Part shown: positions 35,835 through 55,467 of the stretch, piece by piece | Layout of the letters: each line of letters begins with the position of its first letter | Position numbering within the stretch: position 1 is the stretch's first letter | Origin: a virus | Virus record (IMG/VR): IMGVR_UViG_3300042346_000188 | Coordinates: 17,116-81,115 of that record | Direction: 5' to 3' (one strand) | DNA: 64,000 bases | Notes under the pieces: model-generated | What the model was told of the DNA's origin: nothing | Seen by the model: the letters and a program-made list of their open reading frames with translations, nothing else | Databases searched by the model: none | Translations under genes and position numbers: made by a program

Positions 35835-35880
35835 TGCGGCCTCCCCCTGTATTATCTCTCTTAGTAATACGGAAATAATA

Positions 35881-35902
35881 GTATCTTATATGAAGTACAA
35901 TA
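35881..35902 (+). promoter_or_regulatory. early 22-bp box GTATCTTATATGAAGTACAATA, copy 1
   Basis: Identical in 3 intergenic copies; contains -10-like TATCTT/TACAAT; GGAAA about 10 nt upstream. Confidence 0.75.
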
Positions 35903-35925
35903 ATAACCTTATATAGGATAACATT

Positions 35926-36756
35926 ATGTTTATTACAAGAAAAATGGTATTAAAAGATTTTGCAGTTAATCGTAAGAAAGCTACAAAGAAATATGGCAAG
36001 CATGAGTTGCCTCAAATTGACTATTCAAGTGATGCTCTGTCTTACAACATAAAAACTGTTTTGGCAACTTATCTTCAAGCCGGTAGTATGGCCTATGCAC
36101 AGTTGAAACTCCACTCCGAAGCTGCAATTTCTTTGTGGGAACCTACTAAAAGGATATTTAAGATAGATCCTACAGTGTCTGCTGAATTGTGTAATTCAGC
36201 TGTTAGCGCTAGGGTGCCTGTAGATATTATAAGACTTCCTGATTGGTCTATAAGAGTTGATTGCCCTGAGATGCAACTAATGGCCTGTAAGTTGCGAGTA
36301 CATGCCAATGGTGATATAGAAGATATGTTAGTAATAGTCATTGATGAAGAAAAAGAGCAAGTTGCAAAGGCTCTACGCCTAAATGAACCCTGGTGCGCTG
36401 ATGAAGACACTGAAGAGGCTAAAGCTTACATTGGAAAGGCACTTTCTCTTTTATTATATTTGAGCACAGTGCATAATAGCGTTCCAAGATCTGCTTATAA
36501 AAAGTATACGGCTCTTAGTAAGAAAAATCAAACCAAACCTTTTATCTATCCTGAAAAAGCTTCTATAGTAAAGATAGGAGAAGAGCTTGGAAAAATGCTT
36601 CAAACAGCTTATACAAAGCAAGCAGGCTACAGTATGAAAGCGCACATAAGAAGAGCGCATTGGCATAACTATTGGACAGGTCCGAAAGATAATAGGAAGC
36701 TAATATGTAAGTGGACAAACTCCACAGGTGTTAATATGAATTTAGCCGATGTATAA
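35926..36756 (+). CDS. AcrVA2/FinQ-like early protein
   Basis: HIRRAHWHNYWTGP...KW C-terminal motif and LPDWSIRVD resemble the AcrVA2/FinQ family (recalled consensus PHIRRGHWH); first early gene. Confidence 0.6.
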   Translation: MFITRKMVLKDFAVNRKKATKKYGKHELPQIDYSSDALSYNIKTVLATYLQAGSMAYAQLKLHSEAAISLWEPTKRIFKIDPTVSAELCNSAVSARVPVDIIRLPDWSIRVDCPEMQLMACKLRVHANGDIEDMLVIVIDEEKEQVAKALRLNEPWCADEDTEEAKAYIGKALSLLLYLSTVHNSVPRSAYKKYTALSKKNQTKPFIYPEKASIVKIGEELGKMLQTAYTKQAGYSMKAHIRRAHWHNYWTGPKDNRKLICKWTNSTGVNMNLADV

Positions 36757-36769
36757 CGCGGGAAATACG

Positions 36770-36791
36770 GTATCTTATATGAAGTACAATA
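36770..36791 (+). promoter_or_regulatory. early 22-bp box, copy 2
   Basis: Exact repeat of 35881..35902. Confidence 0.75.
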
Positions 36792-36808
36792 CTAACTTGG
36801 AGATTAAA

Positions 36809-37018
36809 ATGAAATACGAAGTGTTTATATTTGAACGTAATGCCGACAGTTATCATGATAGAGCAAATTTATTAAAAGCTTATAGAAGTTTTGAAGAATA
36901 TGAGGATAAGATGGTGTTTGTTGTTGATACCGAAACAGGTGCCTTTGAGGTTATCTGTAATAAAGAGCAACTAAGTCTAGCAGCTGCAAAATTATTGTAT
37001 ATGGGGGAATTAAGATGA
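36809..37018 (+). CDS. hypothetical early protein
   Basis: GGAG RBS before ATG 36809; the ORF-track start at 36749 runs through the promoter box. Confidence 0.65.
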   Translation: MKYEVFIFERNADSYHDRANLLKAYRSFEEYEDKMVFVVDTETGAFEVICNKEQLSLAAAKLLYMGELR

Positions 37019-37314
37019 GCACAGTAATGTTTATGATTGACGCGGTTTTAGATATACGCGTTAGAACCCATTCAGTATTTGAATATGTACTATTCGAAGC
37101 TGAGTGTTACGATGAGTGTATTACTCTCCTAGACAGCGCTGATGCACGTCTTAGAGTTGGTAATAATTACTCATATTCTTGGAACCATACCCATTGGGAT
37201 GGACAAAGATTAGAGTCATTTATTACACTTTTAGATTTACTTGATGATGATAAGTACAAATTAAACGTCCTTACAGAGGGCCATCTTTTTCAACAAGGGG
37301 TATTAGTATTATGA
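37015..37314 (+). CDS. hypothetical early protein
   Basis: ATGA overlap with the previous gene; GGGGA RBS. Confidence 0.65.
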   Translation: MSTVMFMIDAVLDIRVRTHSVFEYVLFEAECYDECITLLDSADARLRVGNNYSYSWNHTHWDGQRLESFITLLDLLDDDKYKLNVLTEGHLFQQGVLVL

Positions 37315-37469
37315 GTGAATGGTATAGCTTTATCGAAGCAATGTTACTGGTTGGTTTTTATTTTGTTTATGTAGCTTACAATGTATTTGCAGAAGACTGC
37401 AAAGATAGACGTAAGTATTGCAAGGTACGTCGTTGGGCACGGCATGCTCTGCAAAAGGACTACAAATAA
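37311..37469 (+). CDS. small membrane protein (52 aa)
   Basis: Not in the ORF track; ATGA overlap; one hydrophobic segment then a basic tail. Confidence 0.55.
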   Translation: MSEWYSFIEAMLLVGFYFVYVAYNVFAEDCKDRRKYCKVRRWARHALQKDYK

Positions 37470-37483
37470 ACGCGGAAAACGGG

Positions 37484-37505
37484 GTATCTTATATGAAGTA
37501 CAATA
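37484..37505 (+). promoter_or_regulatory. early 22-bp box, copy 3
   Basis: Exact repeat of 35881..35902. Confidence 0.75.
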
Positions 37506-37543
37506 AGGTACCTCAATTCAATTAATCCAAGAGGAGAAAAATT

Positions 37544-37781: not shown

Positions 37782-37811
37782 ATAGACCTGAGTAGGTCTA
37801 TAAAGTGCTTA
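37782..37811 (+). ncRNA. putative H-type pseudoknot element, copy 1
   Basis: Stem ATAGAC/GTCTAT, loop CTGAGTAG pairing with downstream TGCTTA; same layout at 42168. Confidence 0.5.
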
Positions 37812-37863
37812 TGTGTATAAGGATGTGTATCCTATACTGATGAGACTATAAAGTCGAAACAAC
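37812..37863 (+). ncRNA. type III hammerhead ribozyme 1
   Basis: GUA site (37815-17), stem I AGGAT-gtgt-ATCCT, CTGATGA (37837-43), stem II GACT-ataa-AGTC, GAAAC (37856-60); stem III short. Confidence 0.75.
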
Positions 37864-37881
37864 TCCAAGAGGAAATTTACA

Positions 37882-38167: not shown

Positions 38168-38353
38168 ATGGAAGGTACAATTTTTGAAATTGGTGGTTAT
38201 GAGTTTTACATAGCTTGGAATGAAAAGATGACAATCTACAAAGTATGGTATGATCGCGGCCATTACCTTGATAGACGCGCTCCAAGGTTTGAATGCACTT
38301 CTTATGAGGAATCTGTGGCATTCTGTAAACTCAAATACGCTTACTGTGGGTAA
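38168..38353 (+). CDS. hypothetical early protein
   Basis: ORF track 38159..38353; AAGGTGA RBS favours ATG 38168. Confidence 0.6.
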   Translation: MEGTIFEIGGYEFYIAWNEKMTIYKVWYDRGHYLDRRAPRFECTSYEESVAFCKLKYAYCG

Positions 38354-38407
38354 GTGTCTCGGGATGTGTATCCCAACTGACGAGTCTAAAAAGACGAAAC
38401 ACACTTA
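38351..38407 (+). ncRNA. type III hammerhead ribozyme 2
   Basis: GUC site (38356-58), stem I GGGAT-gtgt-ATCCC, CTGACGA (38377-83), stem II GTCT-aaaa-AGAC, GAAAC (38396-400), stem III GTGT/ACAC. Confidence 0.8.
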
Positions 38408-39368: not shown

Positions 39369-39434
39369 ACCCCTTTCAGATTCGATTCCTTAACAGGTTT
39401 CGGGTTTGAGAGGGGTTCCTCCTTTATTTTTTCC
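39369..39434 (+). terminator. long hairpin plus U-tract ending the early region
   Basis: 17-bp G.U-rich stem, UU/UU internal loop, CCT-TAAC-AGG tip, then TCCTCCTTTATTTTTT. Confidence 0.65.
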
Positions 39435-43031: not shown

Positions 43032-43191
43032 TGAAGAGATAGAAGAATTACGCCAAATGATTAATGTACTTGGCGTATGTATAGGCGGTCCAGAAGGCTA
43101 TGATGAAAATGATCCTAGTAGCTACTGGCCATTGGCAACTGCTATTGTAAAATGGCAAGGGAGGTTAAATGAAAATATTCAGCAAGCTTAA
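43015..43191 (+). CDS. hypothetical protein (58 aa)
   Basis: AAGGA RBS; not in the ORF track. Confidence 0.5.
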   Translation: MTNFTDEEIEELRQMINVLGVCIGGPEGYDENDPSSYWPLATAIVKWQGRLNENIQQA

Positions 43192-43549: not shown

Positions 43550-43568
43550 ACCCCGTTAAATTAACCCT
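43550..43568 (+). promoter_or_regulatory. 19-bp box, copy 2 (upstream of the replication module)
   Basis: Exact repeat. Confidence 0.7.
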
Positions 43569-43597
43569 TACATCAACCTACTATATGAGATTTAAAA

Positions 43598-44095
43598 ATG
43601 GCAATTCTTAAAAATATTGAAATACACTGGCCACAACTTGATAAACCTGAATCAAAGTATAATCCTCAGAATCCAAGATGGACAATGCAATGCCGCACTT
43701 ATGATAAGGCTCTCTCGAAGCAAGTTAAAGCAATGGGAGTTAAGGTTGAGGAAGAGGAATTACCAGATGGTACAGAATACTGGAGATTCTCTTTAGGAAA
43801 GAATACTGTTTCAAAAACTACAGGGAACAAGAATCCGCCTGTAGAAGTTTTAGATGGTAACTTACAACCAATTCCTTCTAAGTCTATTGGCAATGGTTCT
43901 GTTGCAAATGTACGTGTTTTAGAATGGGAAGATAAGAATAAGGCTGGCGTAAGTGCTGGTGCAATCTTAATGGCAGTACAGATTACAAAATTAATCCCTT
44001 ATGTAGCAAAAGGTATTGATAAGGAATCTTTTGAAGTTACAGAGACAGAGATTGTATATGAAGAAATGCCAGATATTGATGGGGATGTATTCTAA
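43598..44095 (+). CDS. single-stranded DNA-binding protein (T7 gp2.5-like)
   Basis: IGNGSVANV and L-x-AVQI-x-x-L-x-x-Y motifs; acidic tail ending in Phe; heads the replication cluster. Confidence 0.75.
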   Translation: MAILKNIEIHWPQLDKPESKYNPQNPRWTMQCRTYDKALSKQVKAMGVKVEEEELPDGTEYWRFSLGKNTVSKTTGNKNPPVEVLDGNLQPIPSKSIGNGSVANVRVLEWEDKNKAGVSAGAILMAVQITKLIPYVAKGIDKESFEVTETEIVYEEMPDIDGDVF

Positions 44096-44595
44096 TGGCA
44101 CGCTATAACTATACAGCAATCAATGAAGATGGCTCTGAAGGTACAAAATACTCTGACTTCAATGAGATACCAATCAATGCTATTATTGGAGATTATGGCC
44201 ATATTAGAGCAACTCGCGTGGAAGACGATACAATGGCGGGTGCGCTAGTAATCAGAGATGATTATGAAGCTTGGCGTGAAATGCTTGATCGCTGTCATTG
44301 GGTTCCAAAGTCTGAAGTTGCTACTGCAGTGGATCCAAAGCATTACAAGGGCTACGTAGAGGAATTCCAATGGATTGACACTATGAGCCGTATCCCTACG
44401 CTTAAAGATCCTAAAATATTTTCTGGTGCTGTAGAAATGCAAATTAGAAAGTATCTTGATCGCAATGGGCAAAAGGATGATGTTATACAAGAGTTGCTTA
44501 AAGCACGATGGTATTTAAACTATCTGATTGCTTATAAAGTAGCAGATAGGCCAATCATGGTAGATGAGGTCGAAGATATTATATCTTCAATTTAA
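44095..44595 (+). CDS. DUF3310 / T7 gp1.7-like protein
   Basis: AVDPKHY...KYLDR-x-G-x-K...ELLKARWYL. Confidence 0.7.
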   Translation: MARYNYTAINEDGSEGTKYSDFNEIPINAIIGDYGHIRATRVEDDTMAGALVIRDDYEAWREMLDRCHWVPKSEVATAVDPKHYKGYVEEFQWIDTMSRIPTLKDPKIFSGAVEMQIRKYLDRNGQKDDVIQELLKARWYLNYLIAYKVADRPIMVDEVEDIISSI

Positions 44596-44599
44596 CAAC

Positions 44600-44632
44600 A
44601 AAAGGGCGTTTCGCATAAGCGGAGCGCCTTTT
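44600..44632 (+). terminator. hairpin terminator between DUF3310 and the polymerase
   Basis: AAAGGGCGTTTCGC-ATAA-GCGGAGCGCCTTTT. Confidence 0.6.
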
Positions 44633-44646
44633 AATCGAGACTTACT

Positions 44647-46599
44647 ATGAATTATGTATTCGACATAGAATCGGATGGATTGCTGAAAGACGTTACACGA
44701 ATGTGGATTATGGTCGTTAAAGATCTTAAAACGGGTAAACGTACAAGGTTCTTAGAAGGTGATCTTGGTTGGCAAGAGTTGTTTAACAATGCTAATCAAG
44801 TCGTTGGTCATAATATTATAAATTACGACTTACCTGTTCTTGAAAAGTTGTTTGGCTATAGACTGCCAACGTATGTAAAAGCTGTAGATACTTTAATTCT
44901 TTCACAAATACTTGACTATAAAAGATTTGGTGATAAAGGTCATTCTCTTAAAGTATGGGGCGAATATTTAGATGCACCTAAACAAGAATTTGAAGATTGG
45001 TCTAAGTACTCGGAAACAATGGCTCTCTATTGCGAAAATGACGTTGAGGTTAATACCAAAATTTTAATGGCATTGAAAGATGAATTAGACAGAGGCGCTG
45101 ATAGGTTTCCTGAAAAGTTTAAATTAACAAGAGAGTACATTAAAGTAGAGCATGCAGTTGCTAAATGGTGTGCTGATGCAAGTTTGCACGGCTGGCCATT
45201 TGATGTAGAAAAAGCTTATGAGCTTTATGATGAGCTTGAAACAAAGATGAATAGTACTTATGGGATACTTAATAAAAAGCTTGGTGTAAAAACTGTAGCT
45301 TGCGATAAGAAGGCTAGTGATCCGACTGACTTTGGACGTAAGCCTAAATTCCTAAAAGACGGTAGGTATGATATACACCTTGCTCGTTGGTTTAATATTG
45401 ACCAGTGGAGCGGAGTTGAGCCTGACGATCGTTTAGTAGCCGGTGAGTATTGTAAGTTTGAAATTGTACCGTTGAGTCTTAACTCAGTAGCTGATGTAAA
45501 GATATTTCTATATAGAAATGGCTGGCAACCAACAGATTGGAACTACAAGTTAACTGAAGATCTAAAGCGTGAAAGAACAACGCCTAAAATTACTGAAGAT
45601 AGCTTAGAGTTCTTAGGCGGAGATGGCAAGCTATATAGTAACTATTTGACTGAGAAGGCTAGACACTCAATTGTAAAAACATGGTTGGAGAACGTAGATG
45701 ACAATAATAGACTTCATGGAGACTGCATGGTTATCGGGACCCCTAGCATGCGTTCACGTCATAGTATTATTGTTAATATCCCTAGTCCTGATGCTCCATA
45801 CGGGAAACAAATGAGATCATTGTTCAAGTGTAGTCCTGGTTGGAAAATAGTAGGCTGTGACAGTGCTGGCAATCAAGCTAGAGGCTTGGCTCATTTTCTT
45901 AAAGATGATAAGTTTACAGATATTCTTCTAAATGGCGATATTCATACTTTTAATGCAGATACCCTTACTCGTATTTTGAGAAAAAATCTTTACATTGATT
46001 GGAATGAGTATTGGATAGAACAGGGCGTTACGGCAGATGAAAAGCATACGTTAGAAGAGAACCTTGCTATTCGTAGAAGAAATTGTGCTAAGCGGGTATT
46101 GTATGCATTCTTGTTTGGAGCTTCAGGTGGCAAGCTTTGGAGCTATATGTTTAATGGAGAAATGAATGACACGCAAGGCAATAAAGTCAAAAAAGAGTTT
46201 ATTGCTGCAGTTCCAGGTTTTAAAGAACTTCTAAAAGAGCTGGAAACTACATATGGTGGTACAAAGAAAACAGGACACGGTTACATTGCTAGCTTGGCGC
46301 ACACTAGATTGTATGTAGATTCTTTTCATAAGTTACTAGTGTACAAGCTACAAGCTACAGAAAAGATTACTTGTGGTGCAGCATGTATGCTAGTACAACA
46401 ATACCTACAAGAAGAAGGTATTCCTTATCAACCTTTGATTATGTATCATGACGAGTTTCAATTCATGGTACCTGAAGAGCATGCGGAGAGAGCAGTAGAA
46501 TTAGGCATAAAAGCCTTCCAAGAAGGCCCTAAATTGTTTGGAGTCACCATTATGGATGGCTCTGGTTCCTTTGGTAACACTTGGCTGGAGACGCATTGA
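44647..46599 (+). CDS. family A DNA polymerase with 3'-5' exonuclease (T7 gp5-like)
   Basis: ExoI FDIESDG, ExoII GHNIINYD, ExoIII YCENDV; motif A GCDSAGNQAR, B AKRVLYAFLFG, C YHDEFQ. Confidence 0.95.
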   Translation: MNYVFDIESDGLLKDVTRMWIMVVKDLKTGKRTRFLEGDLGWQELFNNANQVVGHNIINYDLPVLEKLFGYRLPTYVKAVDTLILSQILDYKRFGDKGHSLKVWGEYLDAPKQEFEDWSKYSETMALYCENDVEVNTKILMALKDELDRGADRFPEKFKLTREYIKVEHAVAKWCADASLHGWPFDVEKAYELYDELETKMNSTYGILNKKLGVKTVACDKKASDPTDFGRKPKFLKDGRYDIHLARWFNIDQWSGVEPDDRLVAGEYCKFEIVPLSLNSVADVKIFLYRNGWQPTDWNYKLTEDLKRERTTPKITEDSLEFLGGDGKLYSNYLTEKARHSIVKTWLENVDDNNRLHGDCMVIGTPSMRSRHSIIVNIPSPDAPYGKQMRSLFKCSPGWKIVGCDSAGNQARGLAHFLKDDKFTDILLNGDIHTFNADTLTRILRKNLYIDWNEYWIEQGVTADEKHTLEENLAIRRRNCAKRVLYAFLFGASGGKLWSYMFNGEMNDTQGNKVKKEFIAAVPGFKELLKELETTYGGTKKTGHGYIASLAHTRLYVDSFHKLLVYKLQATEKITCGAACMLVQQYLQEEGIPYQPLIMYHDEFQFMVPEEHAERAVELGIKAFQEGPKLFGVTIMDGSGSFGNTWLETH

Positions 46600-46892
46600 T
46601 GAATAGCGAGCAATACCTTTTAGTATGTTTAATGGAAGAGTTATCAGAAGCAGCACAAGAAGCTTCTAAATGTATTAGATTCACACTAGATCATCAGTAT
46701 GAAGAATACGAACACACAAACAAGCAAAAGCTAAAGAATGAATTAGCGGACGTACAAGCTATTCTTATTATGCTAGCTAGTGAATGTAATATTAGGCTGA
46801 ATTGTGATATGAAATCTCACATAAGAGATAAGATAGCCAAAACAGAAATGCGTATGATTTTGTCACAAGATATGGGAGTTTTAGAAAAATGA
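46599..46892 (+). CDS. MazG-like nucleotide pyrophosphohydrolase
   Basis: LMEELSEAAQ...ELADV signature. Confidence 0.75.
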   Translation: MNSEQYLLVCLMEELSEAAQEASKCIRFTLDHQYEEYEHTNKQKLKNELADVQAILIMLASECNIRLNCDMKSHIRDKIAKTEMRMILSQDMGVLEK

Positions 46893-47671
46893 TAGCACTT
46901 ATCGATGCGGATGGTTTAACTTATTCTGTTTGTTACAATCGTGAAAAGCAGAATCCAATAGTTAACCTCGATGACGAAGGTATGGTAACGTATACCACTG
47001 AAGAAGAAGCTGAATATAAAGCTGATATTTTTAGAAACTTTTGTAGAGAACTTTCTGAAGTAAGTGAAAATGTATTTGCCACAGAGTCGCGTATTGTACT
47101 TAGAGGTAAGAATAACTTTAGGCATGCAGTAGATGCATTCTATAAGTCTAAGAGAAATTCTGGCGGTATAAAGAAATATGCCGATTACATCAAAGATACA
47201 GCATTGTCGTTTGAAATGGCAATAGATTCTGAAGGTTGTGAAAGTGATGATATCATACGTATCTGGGCAGAAGAGCTTAGAGCTGAAGGTAAGGAATTTA
47301 TTGTTTGTACTACAGACAAAGACCTTAAGATGATTGCTGGTAAGCACTATCATTTGAAAACTAAACAAATAAGTGAAGTATCTGAACACGAAGCCTTGAT
47401 GTCTTATCATCAGCAACTTCTAATGGGAGATGCAGTTGATAGTATTCCAGGTATTTGGAAAATGGGGCCTGTAAAGTCTGCAAAGGCTTTGAAGGACTGT
47501 GTAACACTAGAATCCTTTCAAGAAGTAGTCATAAATGAGTATATTAAAGCGTATGGCGACAGATGGCCAGAAGAACTTACACTTACAGGTAAGCTTATAC
47601 ATTTATGGCGATGGCCTGAAGACTACTTCAGCTTGGATGAATGGCCACTGGCTAAGGAATTATTAGGTTAA
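46889..47671 (+). CDS. 5'-3' exonuclease (T7 gp6-like)
   Basis: LIDADG, NFR, YK-x-x-R, ESDD, DKDL, GD-x-x-D-x-IPG motifs. Confidence 0.9.
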   Translation: MIALIDADGLTYSVCYNREKQNPIVNLDDEGMVTYTTEEEAEYKADIFRNFCRELSEVSENVFATESRIVLRGKNNFRHAVDAFYKSKRNSGGIKKYADYIKDTALSFEMAIDSEGCESDDIIRIWAEELRAEGKEFIVCTTDKDLKMIAGKHYHLKTKQISEVSEHEALMSYHQQLLMGDAVDSIPGIWKMGPVKSAKALKDCVTLESFQEVVINEYIKAYGDRWPEELTLTGKLIHLWRWPEDYFSLDEWPLAKELLG

Positions 47672-48172
47672 ATGAAATTTGAAGGAGTCGTTCCAACAAC
47701 GGCTCCAGTTTCTGTTAGTAAATTTTCTAATGGGCACTGGAGATACTTTAAACAAATGAGAGAGGATAAAGCATATGTGGGATTCATCTATGCTATCTAT
47801 GATAAAGCTCTTCTTAGATTCTATATTGGAAAGAAGAATTACTTCAGTACTGGTAAAGCTACTTTCGGACGAGAGTCTGATTGGAAGAGATACAAGAGTA
47901 GTAGTTCAACAATTGCAGCTCACCTCAAAGAACGACCAGCAGAAGAATTTCTCTATATCTGCTTGGGGGAATACAAAACAAAAAGTGGACTCGCTTGGGC
48001 CGAAACGTGGTCGTTGGTGACATTAAAAGCACCATTCAGAGAAGATGTATACAACAAGCGAATAGAAGAAATTACGTGGAAAGTTACAGAAGATGTTGCA
48101 CCACATCATATAGAAAGATTAAATCTTATTTCTAAAGGATATATTCCAAATGACTTCGAAAGAGATTGGTAA
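47672..48172 (+). CDS. GIY-YIG family nuclease-like protein
   Basis: GFIYAI...FYIGKK...ESDWKRY-x-SS. Confidence 0.7.
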   Translation: MKFEGVVPTTAPVSVSKFSNGHWRYFKQMREDKAYVGFIYAIYDKALLRFYIGKKNYFSTGKATFGRESDWKRYKSSSSTIAAHLKERPAEEFLYICLGEYKTKSGLAWAETWSLVTLKAPFREDVYNKRIEEITWKVTEDVAPHHIERLNLISKGYIPNDFERDW

Positions 48173-49769
48173 AACCAGCTGTCCCAAATGTAACTCTTCT
48201 GACGCTAGAAAGATATATTCAAGCGGACAGAGTCATTGTTTTTCATGCGATACACATTTTAAAGCGGATGCAGATATGGCAATAGAATTTAAAGGTAGCG
48301 TACCAGCAGCAAAAGTAACACAGAAAGTATCCCATATGGATATTAGCTCGTTACGATCTGTTGCGATAAGAGACAGGAAAATATCCAAAGAAGTTACAGA
48401 GTACTTTGGTGTTAAGATGAGATTTGGGGAAGATGGTGAAGTTGATGGCCATTTCTATCCGTATGGCGACTCTTATAAAATGAGAGCATTGCCTAAGACA
48501 TTTACTTGGGTTGGCCCTAATACGAACAAACTGTTCGGTCAAGATAAGTTTAATGGTGATGGCAAGAGACTTGTTATTACTGAGGGTGAAATTGATGCTA
48601 TGTCTGTTGCACAAGCATCGTTTGAAAAGTACAAAAAGATTTATCCAGTTGTTTCAATGTCATCTGCCACAGGCACAAAAGCTTTACTAGAGAACAGAGA
48701 ATGGATAAGATCTTTTGATGAAGTAATTCTATGCTTTGACAACGATGACGCAGGTAGAGAAGCTACTGACAAGGCTATTAAAATCATTGGTGTAGATAAG
48801 GTAAAGCTTACTAAGATGTTAGTAAAAGATGCTAATCAACTACTCCTTGAAAAGGGTGGTACAGAGGTAATGTCATGCATCTTTAGTGCAGCTAAGTATG
48901 TACCATCAGGTATTATGCGTAGAGATGAGCTTTGGCAGGCAATGGTAGAATACAACTCTATTCCTGTTGTACCATACCCTCCTTGTTTAGACACGCTTAA
49001 TAGCAAACTTAAGGGTATGAGAGAACATACTATTACTTTATTCACTTCAGGCACTGGTTCAGGCAAATCTACAATTACTAGAGAGATTGCATTACACCTA
49101 GTATCTACACAAGATACCATGGTAGGTGTTGTAGCCTTAGAAGAACCACCTGCAGAGACAGCTCGTAAATTAGCGGGTATGGCTATCAGCAGAAACCCTG
49201 CTAACGAAGAACTCTCTGTAGATGATCTTAAGTGCGGCTTTGATAGTGTGTTTGGTGATGATAGAATTATGGTATTAGATCATCAAGGCTCTATGGATGA
49301 TACATCTTTAATGGACAAGCTTGAGTATATGTGTCTCTCAGGTTGCCACTATATTATCTTAGATCACATAACAATTTTAGTATCTGAGGGCGTTGATGGT
49401 CTCCAAGGTAATGAAGCTATTGATAGAACAATGAATGATTTATTAAGATTAGTTAGCAAGTACCCTGTGTGGTTATGTTTGGTATCACACTTAAGAAAGA
49501 CACCTACAGGTAAGAAATCATTTGAAGAGGGTCAACTACCTTCCCTAGATGATATAAAAGGTTCAGGCTCTATTAAACAAGTATCAATGGAAATTGTAGC
49601 CTTTTCAAGAGATATGTCGCATGAAGATGAAGCAATTCGTAATCACATAAACATGCGGGTACTGAAAAGTAGATTTACAGGATTAACAGGCAATGTGCCT
49701 GGAGTCGATTATGTACATGAAACAGGGCGTCTGCGTGCTAGCGCGGAAGATTTTATAACAATAGTTTAG
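48150..49769 (+). CDS. primase-helicase (T7 gp4-like)
   Basis: Zn finger CPKC..CFSC; TOPRIM ITEGEIDA and FDNDDAG; Walker A SGTGSGKS; ILDHI, VSHLRK, KGSGSIKQ, KSRFTG. Confidence 0.95.
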   Translation: MTSKEIGKTSCPKCNSSDARKIYSSGQSHCFSCDTHFKADADMAIEFKGSVPAAKVTQKVSHMDISSLRSVAIRDRKISKEVTEYFGVKMRFGEDGEVDGHFYPYGDSYKMRALPKTFTWVGPNTNKLFGQDKFNGDGKRLVITEGEIDAMSVAQASFEKYKKIYPVVSMSSATGTKALLENREWIRSFDEVILCFDNDDAGREATDKAIKIIGVDKVKLTKMLVKDANQLLLEKGGTEVMSCIFSAAKYVPSGIMRRDELWQAMVEYNSIPVVPYPPCLDTLNSKLKGMREHTITLFTSGTGSGKSTITREIALHLVSTQDTMVGVVALEEPPAETARKLAGMAISRNPANEELSVDDLKCGFDSVFGDDRIMVLDHQGSMDDTSLMDKLEYMCLSGCHYIILDHITILVSEGVDGLQGNEAIDRTMNDLLRLVSKYPVWLCLVSHLRKTPTGKKSFEEGQLPSLDDIKGSGSIKQVSMEIVAFSRDMSHEDEAIRNHINMRVLKSRFTGLTGNVPGVDYVHETGRLRASAEDFITIV

Positions 49770-49777
49770 GAATATAA

Positions 49778-50782
49778 ATGACAGCACAAATACTAACACC
49801 AAGAGAATCTTATGGTGTGGACTACCCAGCTGCAATAGAGTTTGCTATAAAGCAAGCAGAAATCGCATGGTTTGCCCATGAGGTTGAAGTGGAAAAAGAT
49901 ATCCACGAATTGAAAACCAACTGTACTGAAGCAGAATATTTTGGTATTGTTAATACATTAAAGATCTTTGTACACTATGAAATCCATGTTGGTAACAACT
50001 ATTGGAGAGATTATATACCTAGATTCTTTCCACGTCCAGATGTACAGCGAGTAGCATCAGTACATGCTATGACTGAACTTAATATTCACGCTCCGTTCTA
50101 TTTTAAGATAAACGAACTATTAGGTTTAAATACCGATGAGTTTATGAACTCTTACCAAGAAGATGTAATTCTTGCTGATAGATTAGATTGGATGGAACGT
50201 GTTGTATCTAAGCATGAAACTACAATGGAGAAGCTAACTTCAGTTGCTATATTTAGCATGATTGAAGGTGCAGTACTCTATTCTTCTTTTGCATTCTTAA
50301 AGCATTTCAACTCAGATGGTAAAAATAAGTTTCAGAATATTAATGCTGGTATTAATTTCAGTGCTATTGATGAAGATATACATGCCCGAACAGGAGCTTG
50401 GATCTTCAATACAGCTCTTCATGAAGCACTTAATGATGCTGATGAGTATATTAACCTCGACACTTTATATAATGATCTAGAAGTAACCGCTTGGATCATT
50501 GCAGAGAATGAGCGTGATATCGTTCGAAAAATGTTTGAGTTCGGATCAATTGAAGGCATTACACCATTAATGCTAGATAATTTTGTACAAAGTAGACTTG
50601 ACATATGTCTTACACGACTAGGTGCTAAGACATTATTTGAACCATCTTATAATCCAATAGCAGATTGGTTTTATGATGATATTGAATCTAGTACTTTGCA
50701 TGATACATTCATTGCTATGGGTAACGATTACAAGCGTAATTGGACGGAATCTAAATTTATATGGAAGGTGAAAAATGACTAG
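49778..50782 (+). CDS. nrdB: ribonucleotide reductase class I beta subunit
   Basis: E-x-x-H (ELNIH), IEGAVLYSSF and DEDIH metal-ligand motifs. Confidence 0.9.
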   Translation: MTAQILTPRESYGVDYPAAIEFAIKQAEIAWFAHEVEVEKDIHELKTNCTEAEYFGIVNTLKIFVHYEIHVGNNYWRDYIPRFFPRPDVQRVASVHAMTELNIHAPFYFKINELLGLNTDEFMNSYQEDVILADRLDWMERVVSKHETTMEKLTSVAIFSMIEGAVLYSSFAFLKHFNSDGKNKFQNINAGINFSAIDEDIHARTGAWIFNTALHEALNDADEYINLDTLYNDLEVTAWIIAENERDIVRKMFEFGSIEGITPLMLDNFVQSRLDICLTRLGAKTLFEPSYNPIADWFYDDIESSTLHDTFIAMGNDYKRNWTESKFIWKVKND

Positions 50783-52481
50783 TATTTATCGCGAATTGAG
50801 TGTTGAGCGTAAACGATTACAGCAAGAAGGTAAGCTCCCTGAGTGGATTATTACCAATAGCTGGCAACTCCTTAAGGAAAAATATGTTAGTGAAAAATAT
50901 CCAGACTTATTGTCAATCTATACTCGTATTGCTAAGCACGCGAGTACTTACACGGATAGTCCAGCAGCTTGGGAAACCAAATTCTTCGAACTTCTCTGGA
51001 AAGGTTGGCTTATACCTTCTACGCCTGTTTGTGCCAATATGGGCACGGGTAACGGATGTCCGGTTTCATGTTCCGGAAGTACAGTCCAGGATTCAGTATT
51101 TGACTTCTACGCCAAGCAACAAGAGGCCGCAATTCTCTCGCAGCAAGGATATGGTACTAGTAATTATCTTGGTAATATTCGTAAACGTGGTGCCGCTATT
51201 TCTGGTGTGGCCGGATCTGCTTCAGGTGTGTTACCAGTATTTAAAGGATTTGTTAAAGTAGCACAAGATATTTCACAAGGCTCACAGCGCAGAGGTGCTT
51301 GGGCAGGTTATTTGGAGATTGAACATGGTGATTTTGACGAAGTCAGTACTCACATTCTTAACTTTCCTGATGATGCTAATGTCGGTTGGATTATTAGTGA
51401 TGATTTTATTCGTCGTTTAAATGCAGGCGATAAAGATGCATTAAGACGTTATCAAAAAGCAATGAAGCTTAGAATGCTAGGTAAGGGTTATTTCTTCTTT
51501 AGAGATAAAGTTAATCGCGCATTACCTCATGCATACAAACGTAGAGATCTTACAGTAAATGCTTCTAACTTATGTACCGAGATTGCATTATTTAGTGGTA
51601 TCCACTGGGATGAAGAGTATACATTCTCTTGTGTATTATCGTCAATGAATGCTTCTAAGTATGATGAGTGGAAAGATACAGATGCTGTATTCAATGCTAC
51701 TGTATTCTTAGATTGCGTTAACGAGGATCAAATACGTATTGGCAAAGAAAGGCCAGGCATGGAGCGTATTGTAAGATTTGCTGAAAAGTCAAGAGCATTA
51801 GGTTTAGGTTTACTAGGCTTTCATAGTTATTTACAAGATCATAGTATTCCGTTTGAAAGTTTTGATGCTCACTTGGTTAGCCAAGAAATGTTCAAACACC
51901 TTAATATTCAATCTCTAATGGCATCTCAATGGATGGCTAGCGTATGGGGTGAACCTGAATGGTGTTTAGACCTTGGCATTCGAAATACACATCGAATGGC
52001 TATTGCTCCTAACCTATCTAGTTCACTAATAGCTGGCGGTACATCTCAAGGTATTGAGCCTATTTATAAGAATGCGTTTGTACAGAATACTGCAGGCGGT
52101 AAGATGAGAAGATCATCACCTGCATTGATGCACTTAATTGTAGAAGCTGGTCTTGATGTGCAAAAGACTCTTAAGGATATCATCAGAAATAATGGCTCTG
52201 TCCAGCATGTTGATTGGCTCAGTGACCATGAAAAAGATGTATTTAAAACTGCATTTGAAATTAACCAAAAGAGTATCTTGAAATTAGCAGCTGCTAGACA
52301 GCCTTATATTGATCAAGGTCAATCTATTAATCTCTTCTTCGATGCTGATGAAACTGAAGAGTATATCTCTGAAATACATCAAGAAGCATTTGAGCTAGAA
52401 GGTATTAAATCATTGTATTATATTCGCACTACTAATGGTGCAAGGACTAATAAAGATGAGTGTCTCTCATGCCACGGGTGA
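50775..52481 (+). CDS. nrdA: ribonucleotide reductase class I alpha subunit
   Basis: STPV, PVSC, RRGA, SNLCTEI, AIAPN, DQGQS, SLYY and C-terminal C-x-x-C. Confidence 0.92.
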   Translation: MTSIYRELSVERKRLQQEGKLPEWIITNSWQLLKEKYVSEKYPDLLSIYTRIAKHASTYTDSPAAWETKFFELLWKGWLIPSTPVCANMGTGNGCPVSCSGSTVQDSVFDFYAKQQEAAILSQQGYGTSNYLGNIRKRGAAISGVAGSASGVLPVFKGFVKVAQDISQGSQRRGAWAGYLEIEHGDFDEVSTHILNFPDDANVGWIISDDFIRRLNAGDKDALRRYQKAMKLRMLGKGYFFFRDKVNRALPHAYKRRDLTVNASNLCTEIALFSGIHWDEEYTFSCVLSSMNASKYDEWKDTDAVFNATVFLDCVNEDQIRIGKERPGMERIVRFAEKSRALGLGLLGFHSYLQDHSIPFESFDAHLVSQEMFKHLNIQSLMASQWMASVWGEPEWCLDLGIRNTHRMAIAPNLSSSLIAGGTSQGIEPIYKNAFVQNTAGGKMRRSSPALMHLIVEAGLDVQKTLKDIIRNNGSVQHVDWLSDHEKDVFKTAFEINQKSILKLAAARQPYIDQGQSINLFFDADETEEYISEIHQEAFELEGIKSLYYIRTTNGARTNKDECLSCHG

Positions 52482-52617
52482 AGTACAAGTAACATTAAAA
52501 GGCGATAGCCAACAAAGACGTAAGCAGTTAAGAGAATTGTATCGTACGTATAAATATGTACAAATGAAGTTCTCTTTTGGTTACTGGCTTAAGAACACAT
52601 ATATTTGTTGGAATTAA
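52456..52617 (+). CDS. hypothetical protein
   Basis: Short ORF overlapping the nrdA end; start uncertain. Confidence 0.45.
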   Translation: MSVSHATGEVQVTLKGDSQQRRKQLRELYRTYKYVQMKFSFGYWLKNTYICWN

Positions 52618-52621
52618 TCAT

Positions 52622-52647
52622 AGGGAGGACTTCGGTCTTCCCTTTTT
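52622..52647 (+). terminator. intrinsic terminator
   Basis: AGGGAGGAC-TTCG-GTCTTCCCT followed by TTTT. Confidence 0.8.
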
Positions 52648-52660
52648 AACGGAGAGTATT

Positions 52661-53965
52661 ATGAACACAGATGAAATATACGAATGCTTACAGGGTATTG
52701 CAGCAGAGCCTTCTAAGAATGCTAAGGTAGAAATGTTGGAATTTTACTTACAAGATGATGAATTTGAGAAAGTAATTGTATATGCGTACAACCCATTTAT
52801 TACATTTGGTGTACGTAAAGTGCCCAGTGTCTCACATAAGGCTGGCTTACTGAAGTCATTTGATTATGATACATGGGGTCTGCTCGACTTGCTAAGCCAA
52901 AGATATGTAACAGGTAAGCTTGCAATTGAAACCTTATTAGCTACAATGGGAAAGCTGTATAACGGCTCTGAGGCAGTGTTAAGGGGTATTTTAGAAAAAG
53001 ATCTCAGAGCAGGCTTTGATGCTAAGACTATTAATAGAGCTGTTCCTGGCCTAATACCTGTAGCAGCTTATATGCGATGTAGCTTGCCTAAACATGTTAA
53101 AATGGATGAGTTTCATTTCCCTGCATTTAGTCAGGAAAAGGCTGATGGCCTATTTGTAAACATTACTATAGAGGGTTCAGCCATTACAATGCTAAGTCGT
53201 AAGTACCAAGAGATGCCTTTTGATTCTTATAGAGAACTCCTAATACAAGCAGAAGGGCTTGGTGTAATCAAGGAAGGATACCAAACACATGGTGAGTTGA
53301 TTGTAGAGGTCAATGGTGTACCGCTAGAACGTAAAACCAGTAATGGTGTTTTAAGACGTGTCAATCTAGGCGGAGAATTTAAAAATGGAGAATATCCCGT
53401 ATTTTATTATTGGGATATTGTACCAATTACGTCTATAAGAAAGGGGATAGACCATACTATGTACATAAGTAGGTATGAATCCGTTAATAACTATGATCGG
53501 AAGTATGTTAAGGCAATTCCATCTAAGCTAGTTACAACACTACAAGAAGCTGAAGATCACTTTGTAGAACTTGCTGAGCAAGGTAAGGAAGGTACTGTAT
53601 TAAAGTCTTACAGAGCTGTTTGGAAGAATGGTGTTAGTAAAGAGATTGTTAAGTTTAAAAAAGAGTTACATTGTGAATTGAGAGTAATTGATTTTAATCC
53701 AGGCACAGGAGAGAATGCTGATACATTTGGCTCTCTTAAATGTAGTACAGAAGATGGACAACTTATAGTTAACGTAGGTAATCTTACCAATGAATTAACG
53801 TGGGAAATCCACCAAAATTATGATGGCTGGATGTATGCTATCATTGAAGTAACGTATTCATCCGTGATCACTAATGAGAAGGGTGAGTATAGTTTGTTTG
53901 AACCAAAGTTTGTAGAACGTCGTTATGACAAAGAAATTGCAAATACATTAGAGGAGTTAAAATGA
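52661..53965 (+). CDS. ATP-dependent DNA ligase
   Basis: Motif I QEKADG; HGEL, YWDI, EGTVLK, KFK, LFEPKF..R-x-DK; GGAG RBS before ATG 52661. Confidence 0.92.
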   Translation: MNTDEIYECLQGIAAEPSKNAKVEMLEFYLQDDEFEKVIVYAYNPFITFGVRKVPSVSHKAGLLKSFDYDTWGLLDLLSQRYVTGKLAIETLLATMGKLYNGSEAVLRGILEKDLRAGFDAKTINRAVPGLIPVAAYMRCSLPKHVKMDEFHFPAFSQEKADGLFVNITIEGSAITMLSRKYQEMPFDSYRELLIQAEGLGVIKEGYQTHGELIVEVNGVPLERKTSNGVLRRVNLGGEFKNGEYPVFYYWDIVPITSIRKGIDHTMYISRYESVNNYDRKYVKAIPSKLVTTLQEAEDHFVELAEQGKEGTVLKSYRAVWKNGVSKEIVKFKKELHCELRVIDFNPGTGENADTFGSLKCSTEDGQLIVNVGNLTNELTWEIHQNYDGWMYAIIEVTYSSVITNEKGEYSLFEPKFVERRYDKEIANTLEELK

Positions 53966-54096
53966 TAGAGTTTACAGGTATTACAGAGTTGTTAATGGAA
54001 GTCAGTTTAGTTGTTATAACAGGCTCACTCGCAGTAATTATTTTAGGGTTTGCAGTATTTGCAGTTAAAAACATGTATGAGGATTTAATGAAATGA
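53962..54096 (+). CDS. small membrane protein (44 aa)
   Basis: GAGGAG RBS; ATGA overlaps at both ends; long hydrophobic segment. Confidence 0.55.
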   Translation: MIEFTGITELLMEVSLVVITGSLAVIILGFAVFAVKNMYEDLMK

Positions 54097-54725
54097 GTAA
54101 ACATGCAATATTTACAGTAGGTATTAGTGGTTCAGGCAAGTCAACTTGGGCATGGTCTCATCAAGACGCGTGGCGTGTAATCGATAGAGATGTTATTAGA
54201 CGTACATATCTTATCCTCAATGTTAAGGAATACGACCCTGCAGAGGATAATATGTGGGAGCATTGGGATTTCGAAACAATGGAGAACACATGCAATCGAC
54301 GTAGAGAAGAGCTTATTGAAGCTGCATTATATGAGGGTAGTAATATCATCTTCGCAGACACAAACCTTAACTATAACAAGCTGCAGCCTTTAATGCAACG
54401 GTTGATCAGAGCAGACTATAGCGTTGAGTTTAAATTCTTTCCAACAACACTAGAAGATGCTAAGTACAGAAATGTAAATAGACGTGATGTTGTACCTGAA
54501 CATTTATTACAAAATCAGTACACAGCTTATAACGCATTCAGAGGCGCACCTATACGGCTTGATTACAACGGTGTACCTTTTGATGTAATTTTAGACTGTA
54601 TGACAGGAGATATTGATGAGGTATCTGTAAACGGTGTTTATATTGGACATGTCTTAGCTGAAAATGTAGTACAAGACCTAAGAGATGATATTAGAGAACT
54701 AGCACTAATGGATGTGAGACCATGA
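54093..54725 (+). CDS. polynucleotide-kinase-like P-loop kinase (AAA_33), no phosphatase domain
   Basis: GISGSGKSTWA, IDRDVIR, DTNL and R-N-x-x-R..VP motifs like the T4 Pnk kinase module. Confidence 0.75.
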   Translation: MSKHAIFTVGISGSGKSTWAWSHQDAWRVIDRDVIRRTYLILNVKEYDPAEDNMWEHWDFETMENTCNRRREELIEAALYEGSNIIFADTNLNYNKLQPLMQRLIRADYSVEFKFFPTTLEDAKYRNVNRRDVVPEHLLQNQYTAYNAFRGAPIRLDYNGVPFDVILDCMTGDIDEVSVNGVYIGHVLAENVVQDLRDDIRELALMDVRP

Positions 54726-54919
54726 GTAATTTTGATGAATTAGTAGATTTATTAGGCTTTGACCAGCCTGCTGACTTAGATAATATCTTAGGGCATGCAG
54801 CTCTAGAGATCCTTGATGCTAGATATGCAATTAAAGAGCTTAATGCAGAGCTTAAACACCAAAGACAACGTTATGCTGCGTTGCGTACATTGGCTTTAAA
54901 ATCAGGAGCATTCAAATGA
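54722..54919 (+). CDS. hypothetical protein
   Basis: ATGA overlap; coiled-coil-like C-terminus. Confidence 0.6.
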   Translation: MSNFDELVDLLGFDQPADLDNILGHAALEILDARYAIKELNAELKHQRQRYAALRTLALKSGAFK

Positions 54920-55044
54920 AACTAACTGAACAAGAAAAAAGAGATAAAGAACAAGAAAATTATGTACCATTAAGATTCGATGACGATGATGAAGATTGGA
55001 TTGACGATGATGAAGATGAATGGGATGACGAGGAGGACATGTGA
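54916..55044 (+). CDS. very acidic peptide (42 aa)
   Basis: AGGAG RBS, ATGA overlap; ends FDDDDEDWIDDDEDEWDDEEDM; not in the ORF track. Confidence 0.6.
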   Translation: MKLTEQEKRDKEQENYVPLRFDDDDEDWIDDDEDEWDDEEDM

Positions 55045-55193
55045 CAGGTTCATACTTTGTAGCAATCCCCGATTTAAAAACGCGTAAACTTGCGCATTTC
55101 AAAGTACCGTACGATGTGTACGTGTACATTAAACAATTAGAACATGCGGTTGCTAATTTGAAAGACCAGAGTGGAGAGATGAGACATGAGTGA
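55041..55193 (+). CDS. hypothetical protein (50 aa, GTG start)
   Basis: GAGGAGG RBS; GTGA overlap. Confidence 0.5.
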   Translation: MTGSYFVAIPDLKTRKLAHFKVPYDVYVYIKQLEHAVANLKDQSGEMRHE

Positions 55194-55467
55194 TAAACAA
55201 GAGTGGCAACTTTACCATCGCCTTGGTGGTGAATTGGAGATTCATAAGTCAAAGAAACGCATTCGTGTAAACGGGACTGAATTCGCAATAGGCCAGACAT
55301 GGGGAACCGCGAGAAGAGGGTCGAAGACGATAATTGGCTTCAATTTCTCTAATGAAAGCATCTACTTTGAAGATGGAGGGACTTGTAGCCTGACAGGCTA
55401 CTTTCCATCTTATGGCACCCTGCACGGTTGTGTAGAAAGTGATCAGTTAACAAATCTTCTTAATTAG
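55186..55467 (+). CDS. hypothetical protein
   Basis: GGAG RBS; may hold a diverged copy of the amplified small domain. Confidence 0.6.
   Translation: MSDKQEWQLYHRLGGELEIHKSKKRIRVNGTEFAIGQTWGTARRGSKTIIGFNFSNESIYFEDGGTCSLTGYFPSYGTLHGCVESDQLTNLLN

What the first reader, a model, noticed from the sequence alone, without database searches (positions are those of the whole stretch)
54093..54725. Possible ribozyme-plus-kinase timer for early mRNA turnover
Seen: the phage encodes only the 5'-kinase half of a Pnk-like enzyme, with no HAD phosphatase domain and no RNA ligase recognised in the window, so tRNA repair is a poor explanation. The early hammerheads (37812-38407) would generate 5'-OH RNAs. 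Established: 5'-OH ends are poor substrates for 5'-monophosphate-stimulated RNase E/G, and T4 Pnk phosphorylates RegB-generated 5'-OH ends to promote further decay. Inference: self-cleavage first stabilises the early messages, then the later-expressed kinase licenses their destruction, with ribozymes standing in for RegB.
Basis: inference. Interest (0 to 1): 0.7.

Follow-up and report, generated by a model that had tools for sequence, protein, structure and literature searches.

The report
Stand-alone polynucleotide kinase beside DNA ligase
This lake phage encodes an ordinary kinase-only relative of the T4 nucleic-acid end-repair enzyme, translationally coupled to its DNA ligase gene; the idea that it times the destruction of ribozyme-cut early messages is coherent but has no independent support.

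Summary
ORF 54093-54725 is a T4-Pnk-type 5'-OH polynucleotide kinase. All catalytic and acceptor-site residues are present, and its fold matches the T4 Pnk kinase domain. It has no phosphatase domain. The complete 81-kb genome has no RNA ligase, RtcB, HAD_PNKP or metallophosphatase. The two early hammerheads (37810-37865, 38351-38405) are genuine, with strong covariation.

It lies in the replication module.

The proposed ribozyme-kinase coupling gets no independent support. Thirty hammerhead-bearing viral records outside this lineage lack the kinase. Forty-three of 44 kinase-bearing records outside it lack the hammerhead; the one weak hit has no catalytic core. Within the phage's own family, both traits occur together in one clade only. 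At least 15 (near-)complete relatives lack both. A six-protein tree needs only one change per trait, so this is a single evolutionary event, not replicated co-occurrence.

Kinase-only forms are common: about 40% of the closest 149 homologues.

Best reading: a generic 5'-end-healing kinase, probably serving the adjacent ligase. The timer remains possible (about 0.13).

The scan noted kinase-only Pnk genes, and a similar unchecked ribozyme/end-healing idea, on other DNA.

The parts
54093..54725 (+). Kinase-only T4-Pnk-type 5'-OH polynucleotide kinase (210 aa). The kinase domain is about residues 1-150. The C-terminal tail, residues about 150-210, has unknown function.
   Evidence: PF13671 and phrog_505 match the kinase half only. 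T4 Pnk is the best PDB hit by sequence and by fold. The residues equivalent to T4 K15, S16, D35, R38, E57, D85, T86, R122, R126 and V131/P132 are K16, S17, D33, R36, E64, D89, T90, R126, R130 and V134/P135. Tail residues 158-190 are 52% identical (E 5e-9) to a free-standing 53-aa ORF in an unrelated viral contig.
52577..53965 (+). T4-type ATP-dependent DNA ligase, immediately upstream of the kinase
   Evidence: PF01068 E 4e-9 and phrog_114 E 2.7e-89. The best PDB match is T4 DNA ligase 6dt1, E 2.4e-25. The ligase lies directly upstream of the kinase in all six lineage relatives, with up to about 1.4 kb between the matched domains in the 48% clade.
53962..54096 (+). 44-aa hydrophobic ORF bridging ligase and kinase; it overlaps both by ATGA
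   Evidence: ATGA at 53962-53965 is the ligase stop and this ORF's start. ATGA at 54093-54096 is this ORF's stop and the kinase start.
54722..54919 (+). 65-aa ORF overlapping the kinase stop by ATGA; no family match
37810..37865 (+). Type III hammerhead A; predicted cut after A37817 (GUA). Context of the finding; a functional link to the kinase is unproven.
   Evidence: RF00008 27.1 bits; own model R1 62.6 bits; covariation. It is followed by an SD and the ATG at 37882.
38351..38405 (+). Type III hammerhead B; predicted cut after C38358 (GUC). It starts at the stop codon of the upstream 61-aa ORF.
   Evidence: RF00008 35.0 bits; R1 70.1 bits. It is followed by an SD and the ATG at 38420.
37784..37799 (+). 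Conserved hairpin AGACCUGAGUAGGUCU just upstream of hammerhead A; it would lie close to the 3' end (18 nt upstream of it) of the upstream cleavage product
   Evidence: Fold -11.6 kcal/mol, z -2.2. The same hairpin-plus-hammerhead unit occurs in G036 and G025.
35865..37510 (+). Three copies of the promoter-like class B repeat (35880, 36769, 37483) that head the early unit holding the hammerheads
   Evidence: No other copy was found in the window.
43550..43586 (+). Class A promoter-like repeat (second copy at 35816) heading the replication module that contains the ligase and kinase
   Evidence: No strong terminator lies between it and the kinase.
39409..39425 (+). Terminator-like hairpin with a T run closing the early unit, just before the RNA polymerase gene

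Best explanation
The gene encodes an active, stand-alone 5'-OH polynucleotide kinase of the T4 Pnk type. It is made together with the replication enzymes, as part of a translationally coupled string: DNA ligase, 44-aa ORF, kinase, 65-aa ORF. It transfers the gamma-phosphate of an NTP to 5'-OH ends of single-stranded or frayed nucleic-acid ends. Its most likely job is generic end healing, turning unligatable 5'-OH termini into 5'-phosphate termini for the neighbouring T4-type DNA ligase and the phage 5'-3' exonuclease. RNA 5'-OH ends, including the two hammerhead products, are possible additional substrates but not a demonstrated or required target. Shown: the enzyme family, an intact active site, the fold, the absence of a phosphatase or RNA ligase, and the operon structure. 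Inferred: activity, the DNA-ligase partnership, and expression timing.
For: Family, residues and fold; residue roles from PMC2831316. The ATGA overlaps that join ligase, ORF44, kinase and ORF65 argue for co-expression. The ligase lies directly upstream of the kinase in all six lineage relatives, down to 48% kinase identity. In other phages the Pnk gene typically sits next to a ligase gene. Of 44 records outside the lineage, 33 carry an Rnl1- and/or Rnl2-type RNA ligase, and in 21 it lies within 2.5 kb of the kinase. Here the ligase in that position is a DNA ligase and no RNA ligase exists. The gene lies in the replication and nucleotide-metabolism block: DNAP, exonuclease, primase-helicase, RNR, ligase. 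That block sits behind a promoter-like repeat different from the early one. Kinase-only forms are common: 59 of the best 149 homologues are under 235 aa.
Against: 5'-OH DNA ends usually come with 3'-phosphates, and this phage has no 3'-phosphatase, so healing would be incomplete without host enzymes. I know of no phage in which Pnk plus DNA ligase has been shown to repair DNA in vivo. Gene order in T7-like replication modules is conserved anyway, so adjacency is weak evidence. In the sister clades the slot behind the ligase holds other genes. The only documented in-vivo role for the kinase activity alone is RNA decay licensing in T4 (PMC3014915).
Confidence: 0.5

Rival explanations
1. The two hammerheads give the early messages 5'-OH ends that escape 5'-monophosphate-dependent RNases. 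The later-made kinase phosphorylates these ends and licenses their decay, as T4 PNK does for RegB-cut mRNAs.
For: The T4 precedent is real (PMC3014915). The hammerheads are genuine and intergenic in the early unit. The kinase lies in a different promoter class. Loss of phosphatase and RNA ligase fits a role that needs only 5' phosphorylation. Within the phage's family, hammerhead and kinase have exactly the same distribution. All seven lineage records, the window's own genome included, carry both. At least 15 (near-)complete relatives lack both.
Against: The co-distribution needs only one change per trait. On a 3270-column, six-protein tree the bearers form one clade (81/80; 83% of bootstraps). 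Outside the lineage, 30 of 30 records with the same hammerhead family lack the kinase, including G027 at 100% and G002 at 84% complete. Likewise, 43 of 44 kinase-bearing records lack the hammerhead. Only messages downstream of the two cuts (about 37818-39400) would gain 5'-OH ends; the first early genes would not. In the predicted fold the new 5' end has about 2 free nucleotides followed at once by the stem I hairpin. From memory, a 5'-terminal hairpin hinders both T4-type Pnk and 5'-end-dependent RNase E. The host and its RNases are unknown.
Confidence: 0.13
2. An RNA-directed role not specific to the ribozymes. The kinase phosphorylates any 5'-OH RNA, for example host or phage RNAs cut by host toxin or defence RNases. 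This would speed their decay, or block host RtcB, which needs a 5'-OH, from re-joining or circularising fragments. The 541-nt piece between the two hammerhead cuts would be one such fragment.
For: The same biochemical logic and T4 precedent apply (PMC3014915). The kinase-only architecture fits. Pnk homologues in most phages belong to RNA-end systems. The two cuts would release a 541-nt RNA with RtcB-compatible ends.
Against: There is no direct evidence. The gene sits in a DNA-metabolism operon. No RNA-related neighbour was found.
Confidence: 0.15
3. Classical RNA repair. The kinase heals tRNA or mRNA cut by an anticodon nuclease, with a host phosphatase and a host ligase, or the phage DNA ligase, completing the repair.
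For: This is the canonical role of phage Pnkp. Twenty-one of 44 homologue-bearing records have an RNA ligase within 2.5 kb of the kinase.
Against: The complete genome has no 3'-phosphatase, 2',3'-cyclic phosphodiesterase-type HAD or metallophosphatase domain, RNA ligase or RtcB. None of the lineage relatives has an RNA ligase.
Confidence: 0.07
4. The protein is not a polynucleotide kinase. It would be a small-molecule or nucleotide kinase, a zeta-toxin-like kinase, or a kinase of modified bases in DNA.
For: AAA_33 is a broad family. There are weak Zeta_toxin and CPT hits (E 0.02 and 0.087). The gene lies beside ribonucleotide reductase.
Against: All acceptor-site residues specific to T4 Pnk are kept: D33/R36, E64, D89-T90-N91 and V134-P135 (PMC2831316). 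The top structural matches are all polynucleotide kinases. There is no thymidylate-synthase-like gene that would signal base hypermodification.
Confidence: 0.05

Closest known systems
Bacteriophage T4 polynucleotide kinase-phosphatase (Pnkp, PseT), kinase domain (PDB 1LY1, 1LTQ, 2IA5)
   Same: Same P-loop fold (TM 0.82 on 1ly1). Same P-loop, general base Asp, acceptor-phosphate Arg, Glu salt bridge, DTN motif, lid arginines and Val-Pro base pocket (PMC2831316).
   Different: Only about 25-28% identical. It lacks the whole DxDxT phosphatase domain. It carries a 60-residue tail related to a free-standing small phage ORF. It sits beside a DNA ligase rather than in a genome with RNA ligases 1 and 2.
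T4 RegB / PNK / RNase G-E pathway of early mRNA decay (Uzan and Miller 2010, PMC3014915)
   Same: A phage kinase able to turn 5'-OH RNA ends into 5'-phosphate ends, and a phage-encoded source of 5'-OH ends in early transcripts.
   Different: Here the cutter would be two cis-acting hammerheads that leave the Shine-Dalgarno sites intact, whereas RegB cuts inside them. No phosphatase is present to help 3' decay. The host RNases are unknown. No experimental or comparative evidence links the two parts.
Hammerhead ribozymes flanking genes in phages and prophages (Perreault et al. 2011, PMC3088659)
   Same: Type III hammerheads lie between short genes of a polycistronic phage transcript, close to the downstream start codon. 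Processing of long transcripts was proposed there too.
   Different: Nothing material. The loop I sequence GGAUGUGUAUCC is shared with 34 viral contigs. That paper makes no link to a kinase.
Kinase modules of bacterial Pnkp-Hen1 RNA repair (Clostridium thermocellum Pnk, PDB 4GP6/4GP7/4MDE) and mammalian PNKP (3ZVN, 1YJ5)
   Same: Structural relatives. Mammalian PNKP is, from memory, the precedent for a 5' kinase feeding DNA ligases.
   Different: These enzymes are more distant than T4 Pnk. They carry phosphatase and/or ligase modules in the same protein or complex.

Membership tests
T4-Pnk-type 5'-OH polynucleotide kinase (P-loop; PF13671 / phrog_505) | P-loop GxxGxGK(S/T) | tested here: met
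   G10-I-S-G-S-G-K16-S17; invariant in alignments A1 and A2.
T4-Pnk-type 5'-OH polynucleotide kinase (P-loop; PF13671 / phrog_505) | General-base Asp and acceptor 3'-phosphate Arg (T4 D35, R38), with the Glu57 salt bridge | tested here: met
   D33, R36 and E64 align to T4 D35, R38 and E57. They are invariant in A1. Roles are from PMC2831316.
T4-Pnk-type 5'-OH polynucleotide kinase (P-loop; PF13671 / phrog_505) | Asp85-Thr86 (DTN) motif, lid arginines R122/R126, Val131-Pro132 base pocket | tested here: met
   D89-T90-N91, R126, R130 and V134-P135.
T4-Pnk-type 5'-OH polynucleotide kinase (P-loop; PF13671 / phrog_505) | Fold of the T4 Pnk kinase domain | tested here: met
   Model pLDDT above 90 over most of residues 1-140. 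The top PDB hits are all T4 Pnk (E 2e-8; TM 0.82 to 1ly1), followed by other polynucleotide kinases.
T4-Pnk-type 5'-OH polynucleotide kinase (P-loop; PF13671 / phrog_505) | ATP-dependent phosphorylation of 5'-OH DNA/RNA ends | not testable with these tools
   Needs an enzyme assay.
Bifunctional Pnkp (kinase plus DxDxT 3'-phosphatase) | C-terminal HAD domain with a DxDGT motif | tested here: not met
   The protein ends at residue 210. PF25109 has no match anywhere in the genome. The stretch that aligns to motif I reads D-C-M-T-G, and it is better explained as a separate small module.
Phage RNA repair system (Pnkp plus RNA ligase) | An Rnl1-, Rnl2- or RtcB-type RNA ligase in the genome | tested here: not met
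   PF09414, PF09511 and PF01139 are absent from the complete genome. PF09414 and PF09511 are also absent from all six lineage relatives; RtcB was not searched in them. PF09414 and/or PF09511 is present in 33 of 44 other Pnk-bearing records.
T4-like RegB/PNK mRNA-decay licensing | Kinase-dependent decay of 5'-OH early mRNAs by host 5'-monophosphate-sensing RNases | not testable with these tools
   The host is unknown. Only RNA contigs, not reads, were available. The comparative proxy, co-occurrence, reduces to a single event.
Type III hammerhead ribozyme (Rfam RF00008) | Core CUGANGA ... GAAA with an NUH cleavage site, and three helices supported by covariation | tested here: met
   The Rfam gathering score is not reached (35.0 and 27.1 against 48.5 bits), but the lineage model R1 gives 70.1 and 62.6 bits.
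Type III hammerhead ribozyme (Rfam RF00008) | Self-cleavage | not testable with these tools
   Contig pieces of one RNA study start 15 and 37 nt behind the hammerhead B cut. Contigs cannot show RNA ends.

The most novel reading that the evidence does not exclude
In this clade of lake phages, cis-acting hammerheads replace an endonuclease such as RegB. They give early messages protected 5'-OH ends, and a kinase-only Pnk, acquired on the same evolutionary branch and expressed from the replication operon, later phosphorylates those ends to trigger their decay. This would be a ribozyme-plus-kinase clock for the early-to-middle switch.
Probability: 0.13. Interest if true: 0.7.

Novelty: new member of a known kind. 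Interest (0 to 1): 0.3.

Why it matters
As it stands, this is an ordinary kinase-only Pnk homologue plus ordinary phage hammerheads. If the coupling were real, it would be the first case in which RNA end chemistry set by a ribozyme is read out by a phage enzyme to time mRNA decay. It would also give phage hammerheads, whose purpose has been unexplained since 2011, a defined role. The comparative work here narrows the question. The clade with both traits, and complete sister genomes with the same gene order but neither trait, give a clean natural contrast for experiments.

Tried and rejected
- Megablast of the locus against cultured phages found no match.
- I laid four lake and freshwater metatranscriptome runs on 35400-55300. 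Only assembled contigs were available. They cover the early region and the ligase-kinase stretch but cannot show RNA ends, strand or level. Contig pieces of one study (X17, X18) start at 38374 and 38396, just behind the hammerhead B cut. I give this no weight.
- I first read the kinase tail as a vestige of the HAD phosphatase, because HMMER and MAFFT align it to the linker plus motif I. I downgraded that reading when the same 33 residues turned up as a free-standing 53-aa ORF elsewhere. The Atlas gave nothing on the tail.
- The idea of a DNA kinase for hypermodified bases (5-hmdU type) was dropped because there is no thymidylate-synthase-like gene. Whether such kinases belong to this family is from memory.
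- Weak R1 hits in G058 (17 bits), G082 (17 bits) and G085 (12 bits) are not counted as hammerheads. The G058 sequence lacks the CUGANGA core. Rfam found no hammerhead in the G082 and G085 loci.
- The RNAP-only tree left a trichotomy. It was replaced by the six-protein concatenate.
- Pfam and PHROG searches of ten further replication-module ORFs gave nothing useful, only DUF3310.

Full report
THE GENE. ORF 54093-54725 (+, 210 aa) matches Pfam AAA_33 (PF13671, E 1.6e-14, residues 6-142). It matches PHROG 505 'polynucleotide kinase' (E 1.6e-21), but only over profile positions 2-148 of 295, the kinase half. The only solved structures found by sequence are T4 Pnk (1ly1, 1ltq; E about 1e-6).

An exhaustive profile-free search of 1.84 billion representatives gave 552 homologues. 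Of the best 149, 87 are 270-400 aa, and 80 of those carry a DxDGT-like motif, so they are bifunctional Pnkp. Another 59 are under 235 aa (median 157) and are kinase only. Some of the short ones may be fragments.

In a 26-sequence alignment the invariant columns are exactly the T4 Pnk catalytic and acceptor-site residues:
- P-loop G10...K16 (S17 is T in some rows)
- D33 and R36 (T4 D35, R38)
- E64 (T4 E57)
- D89-T90-N91 (T4 D85-T86-N87; D89 is nearly invariant)
- R126 (nearly invariant) and R130 (T4 R122, R126)
V134-P135 (T4 V131-P132) also aligns; V134 is nearly invariant. Their roles come from PMC2831316.

An AlphaFold model (pLDDT 82.9, above 90 over most of residues 1-140) retrieves T4 Pnk first (E 2e-8; TM 0.82 on the 1ly1 kinase domain). 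Next come C. thermocellum Pnk, PSTK and mammalian PNKP. So this is a polynucleotide kinase, not a nucleotide kinase.

The last 60 residues are modelled with low confidence. HMMER and MAFFT align them to the Pnkp linker and HAD motif I. However, residues 158-190 are 52% identical (E 5e-9) to a free-standing 53-aa ORF in an unrelated viral contig. I therefore read the tail as a small fused module of unknown function. The 48%-identical relatives lack it and have an N-terminal extension instead.

WHAT IS ABSENT. The window is bases 17116-81115 of an 81,115-bp virus record rated 100% complete. The whole record has no match to PF09414 or PF09511 (RNA ligases 2 and 1), RtcB, HAD_PNKP, metallophosphatase or thymidylate synthase.

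NEIGHBOURS. It matches PF01068 and phrog_114 (E 2.7e-89), and its best solved relative is T4 DNA ligase 6dt1 (E 2.4e-25). Ligase, a 44-aa hydrophobic ORF, the kinase, a 65-aa ORF and the next ORF are joined by ATGA stop/start overlaps at 53962, 54093, 54722 and 54916. No promoter- or terminator-like signal stands out between them.

The block belongs to a T7-like replication module: RNAP 39438, DNAP 44647, exonuclease 46889, primase-helicase 48150, RNR 49778 and 50775. It sits behind a promoter-like repeat at 43550 that recurs at 35816. That repeat differs from the three-copy repeat (35880, 36769, 37483) heading the early genes.

THE HAMMERHEADS. The two best Rfam hits of the whole window are both Hammerhead_3, on the same strand and in two intergenic gaps 541 nt apart: 38351-38405 (35.0 bits) and 37810-37865 (27.1 bits). 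The gathering score is 48.5. They are the only two sites in the genome with the core plus a stem II hairpin.

A pattern scan found the same hammerhead type, with loop I GGAUGUGUAUCC, in 34 viral contigs. On 18 distinct copies, the positions the pattern left free covary strongly in all three helices. Ninety-two percent of cells are paired. The covariation score is 0.484, against 0.141 for shuffles and at most 0.094 for slid controls.

Cleavage would fall after A37817 and C38358. Each ribozyme is followed within about 15 nt by a Shine-Dalgarno site and a start codon. Hammerhead A is preceded by a conserved hairpin. This arrangement has been described for phages and prophages since 2011, with processing of long transcripts as the proposed role (PMC3088659).

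IS THE KINASE TIED TO THE RIBOZYMES? Three tests.
(a) Of 32 viral records carrying this hammerhead type, only the two that belong to this phage's lineage carry a Pnk-like kinase. Six records that are 66-100% complete lack it.
(b) Of 50 records carrying a kinase homologue, only the six lineage relatives carry the hammerhead. Their kinase identities are 99, 99, 81, 81, 48 and 48%. Thirteen records that are at least 90% complete lack it.
(c) I sampled the phage's own family through third markers: the free RNA polymerase and the MuF-RNAP fusion.
- Twenty-four further members, 13 of them at least 95% complete, have neither trait.
- So do G083 and G084.
- Three of these (G086, G096, G097) have the same gene order and a free RNAP 72-73% identical to ours, yet lack both traits.
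So within the family the two traits coincide perfectly. But a tree of six concatenated replication proteins (3270 columns) places all bearers in one clade (support 81/80; 83% of bootstraps). The G086/G096 group is its sister. One change per trait therefore suffices. The RNAP-only tree was unresolved. The coincidence is a single evolutionary event and cannot separate function from common descent.

CONTEXT OF PNK GENES ELSEWHERE. Among the 44 kinase-bearing records outside the lineage, 33 carry an Rnl1- and/or Rnl2-type RNA ligase. In 21 it lies within 2.5 kb of the kinase, including next to 160-aa kinase-only forms. A healing gene beside a sealing gene is thus the norm. In this lineage the sealing gene in that position is a DNA ligase, and RNA ligases are absent. 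In sister genomes the slot behind the ligase holds other genes.

LITERATURE. RegB leaves 5'-OH ends. RNase G and E prefer 5'-monophosphate. In a pseT deletion the secondary cuts vanish and some RegB-processed transcripts are stabilised (PMC3014915). I found no paper linking self-cleaving ribozymes with a phage Pnk.

RNA DATA. Lake and freshwater metatranscriptome assemblies hold near-identical sequence across the early region and the RNR-ligase-kinase stretch. Only contigs were available, so no RNA ends, strand or level can be read.

WEIGHING.
- The enzyme identity is secure (about 0.85-0.9).
- The physiological substrate is not. The translationally coupled DNA ligase, the replication-module setting and the general healing-next-to-sealing pattern make generic 5'-end healing for the ligase the leading reading. 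It is incomplete, because no 3'-phosphatase is present.
- The timer is mechanistically coherent and has a T4 precedent. But it would affect only the messages behind two cuts. Its new 5' ends sit at the foot of the stem I hairpin. Hammerheads of the same family work in many phages without any such kinase.
- My odds: end-healing with the ligase 0.5; the timer 0.13; other RNA-directed roles 0.15; classical RNA repair 0.07; not a polynucleotide kinase 0.05.

NOVELTY. This is a new member of a known kind. Kinase-only Pnk homologues and intergenic phage hammerheads are both well known. Other parts of this scan already noted kinase-only Pnk genes in other phages, and a similar unchecked ribozyme/end-healing idea on another genome.

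Noticed in passing
L137:705-892; L136:8047-8341; G036, G025, G084, G091 free-RNAP genes: The free RNA polymerase genes of several relatives are interrupted. There is a group I intron in L137 (RF00028, 81.8 bits, above gathering score) and a weaker one in L136. The RNAP matches in G036, G025, G084 and G091 are split into two pieces.
   Followed up: partly
L016:52-90 and L019:52-90: Two 'viral' records of only 366 and 377 nt carry a hammerhead with the same loop I (GGAUGUGUAUCC) as the phage copies. They look like viroid-like or satellite RNAs, so this loop I motif is shared between phage and small circular-RNA hammerheads.
   Followed up: no
window 37818-38358: The two hammerhead cuts would release a 541-nt RNA carrying two small ORFs (94 and 61 aa), with 5'-OH and 2',3'-cyclic phosphate ends. 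This is the substrate type that host RtcB can circularise.
   Followed up: no
window 54564-54662 (kinase residues 158-190) and L005:1053-1214: The kinase's C-terminal tail is homologous (52% over 33 residues, E 5e-9) to a free-standing 53-aa ORF in an unrelated viral contig. This suggests a small mobile module of unknown function fused to the kinase.
   Followed up: partly
G033/G034 versus G001 (loci L003, L004, L041, L127, L131, L132): There is mosaicism within the lineage. G033 and G034 share a 99% identical kinase with the window but only an 85% identical RNAP. G001 has a 98% identical RNAP but an 81% identical kinase.
   Followed up: no
L121, L122, L123 (about 1501-1564): The hammerhead of G033, G034 and G035 has an extra U between core A9 and stem II (CUGAUGA-U-GGUUC...). 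These genomes gave only one hammerhead hit each, against two in the window.
   Followed up: partly
records G040-G080: In 21 of 44 unrelated phage records, the Pnk-type kinase gene lies within 2.5 kb of an Rnl1- or Rnl2-type RNA ligase gene. This includes the 160-aa kinase-only forms (G074, G075, G077).
   Followed up: partly
window 53962-54096: A 44-aa strongly hydrophobic ORF is wedged between the ligase and the kinase with ATGA overlaps on both sides. It may be a small membrane peptide or merely a coupling spacer.
   Followed up: no
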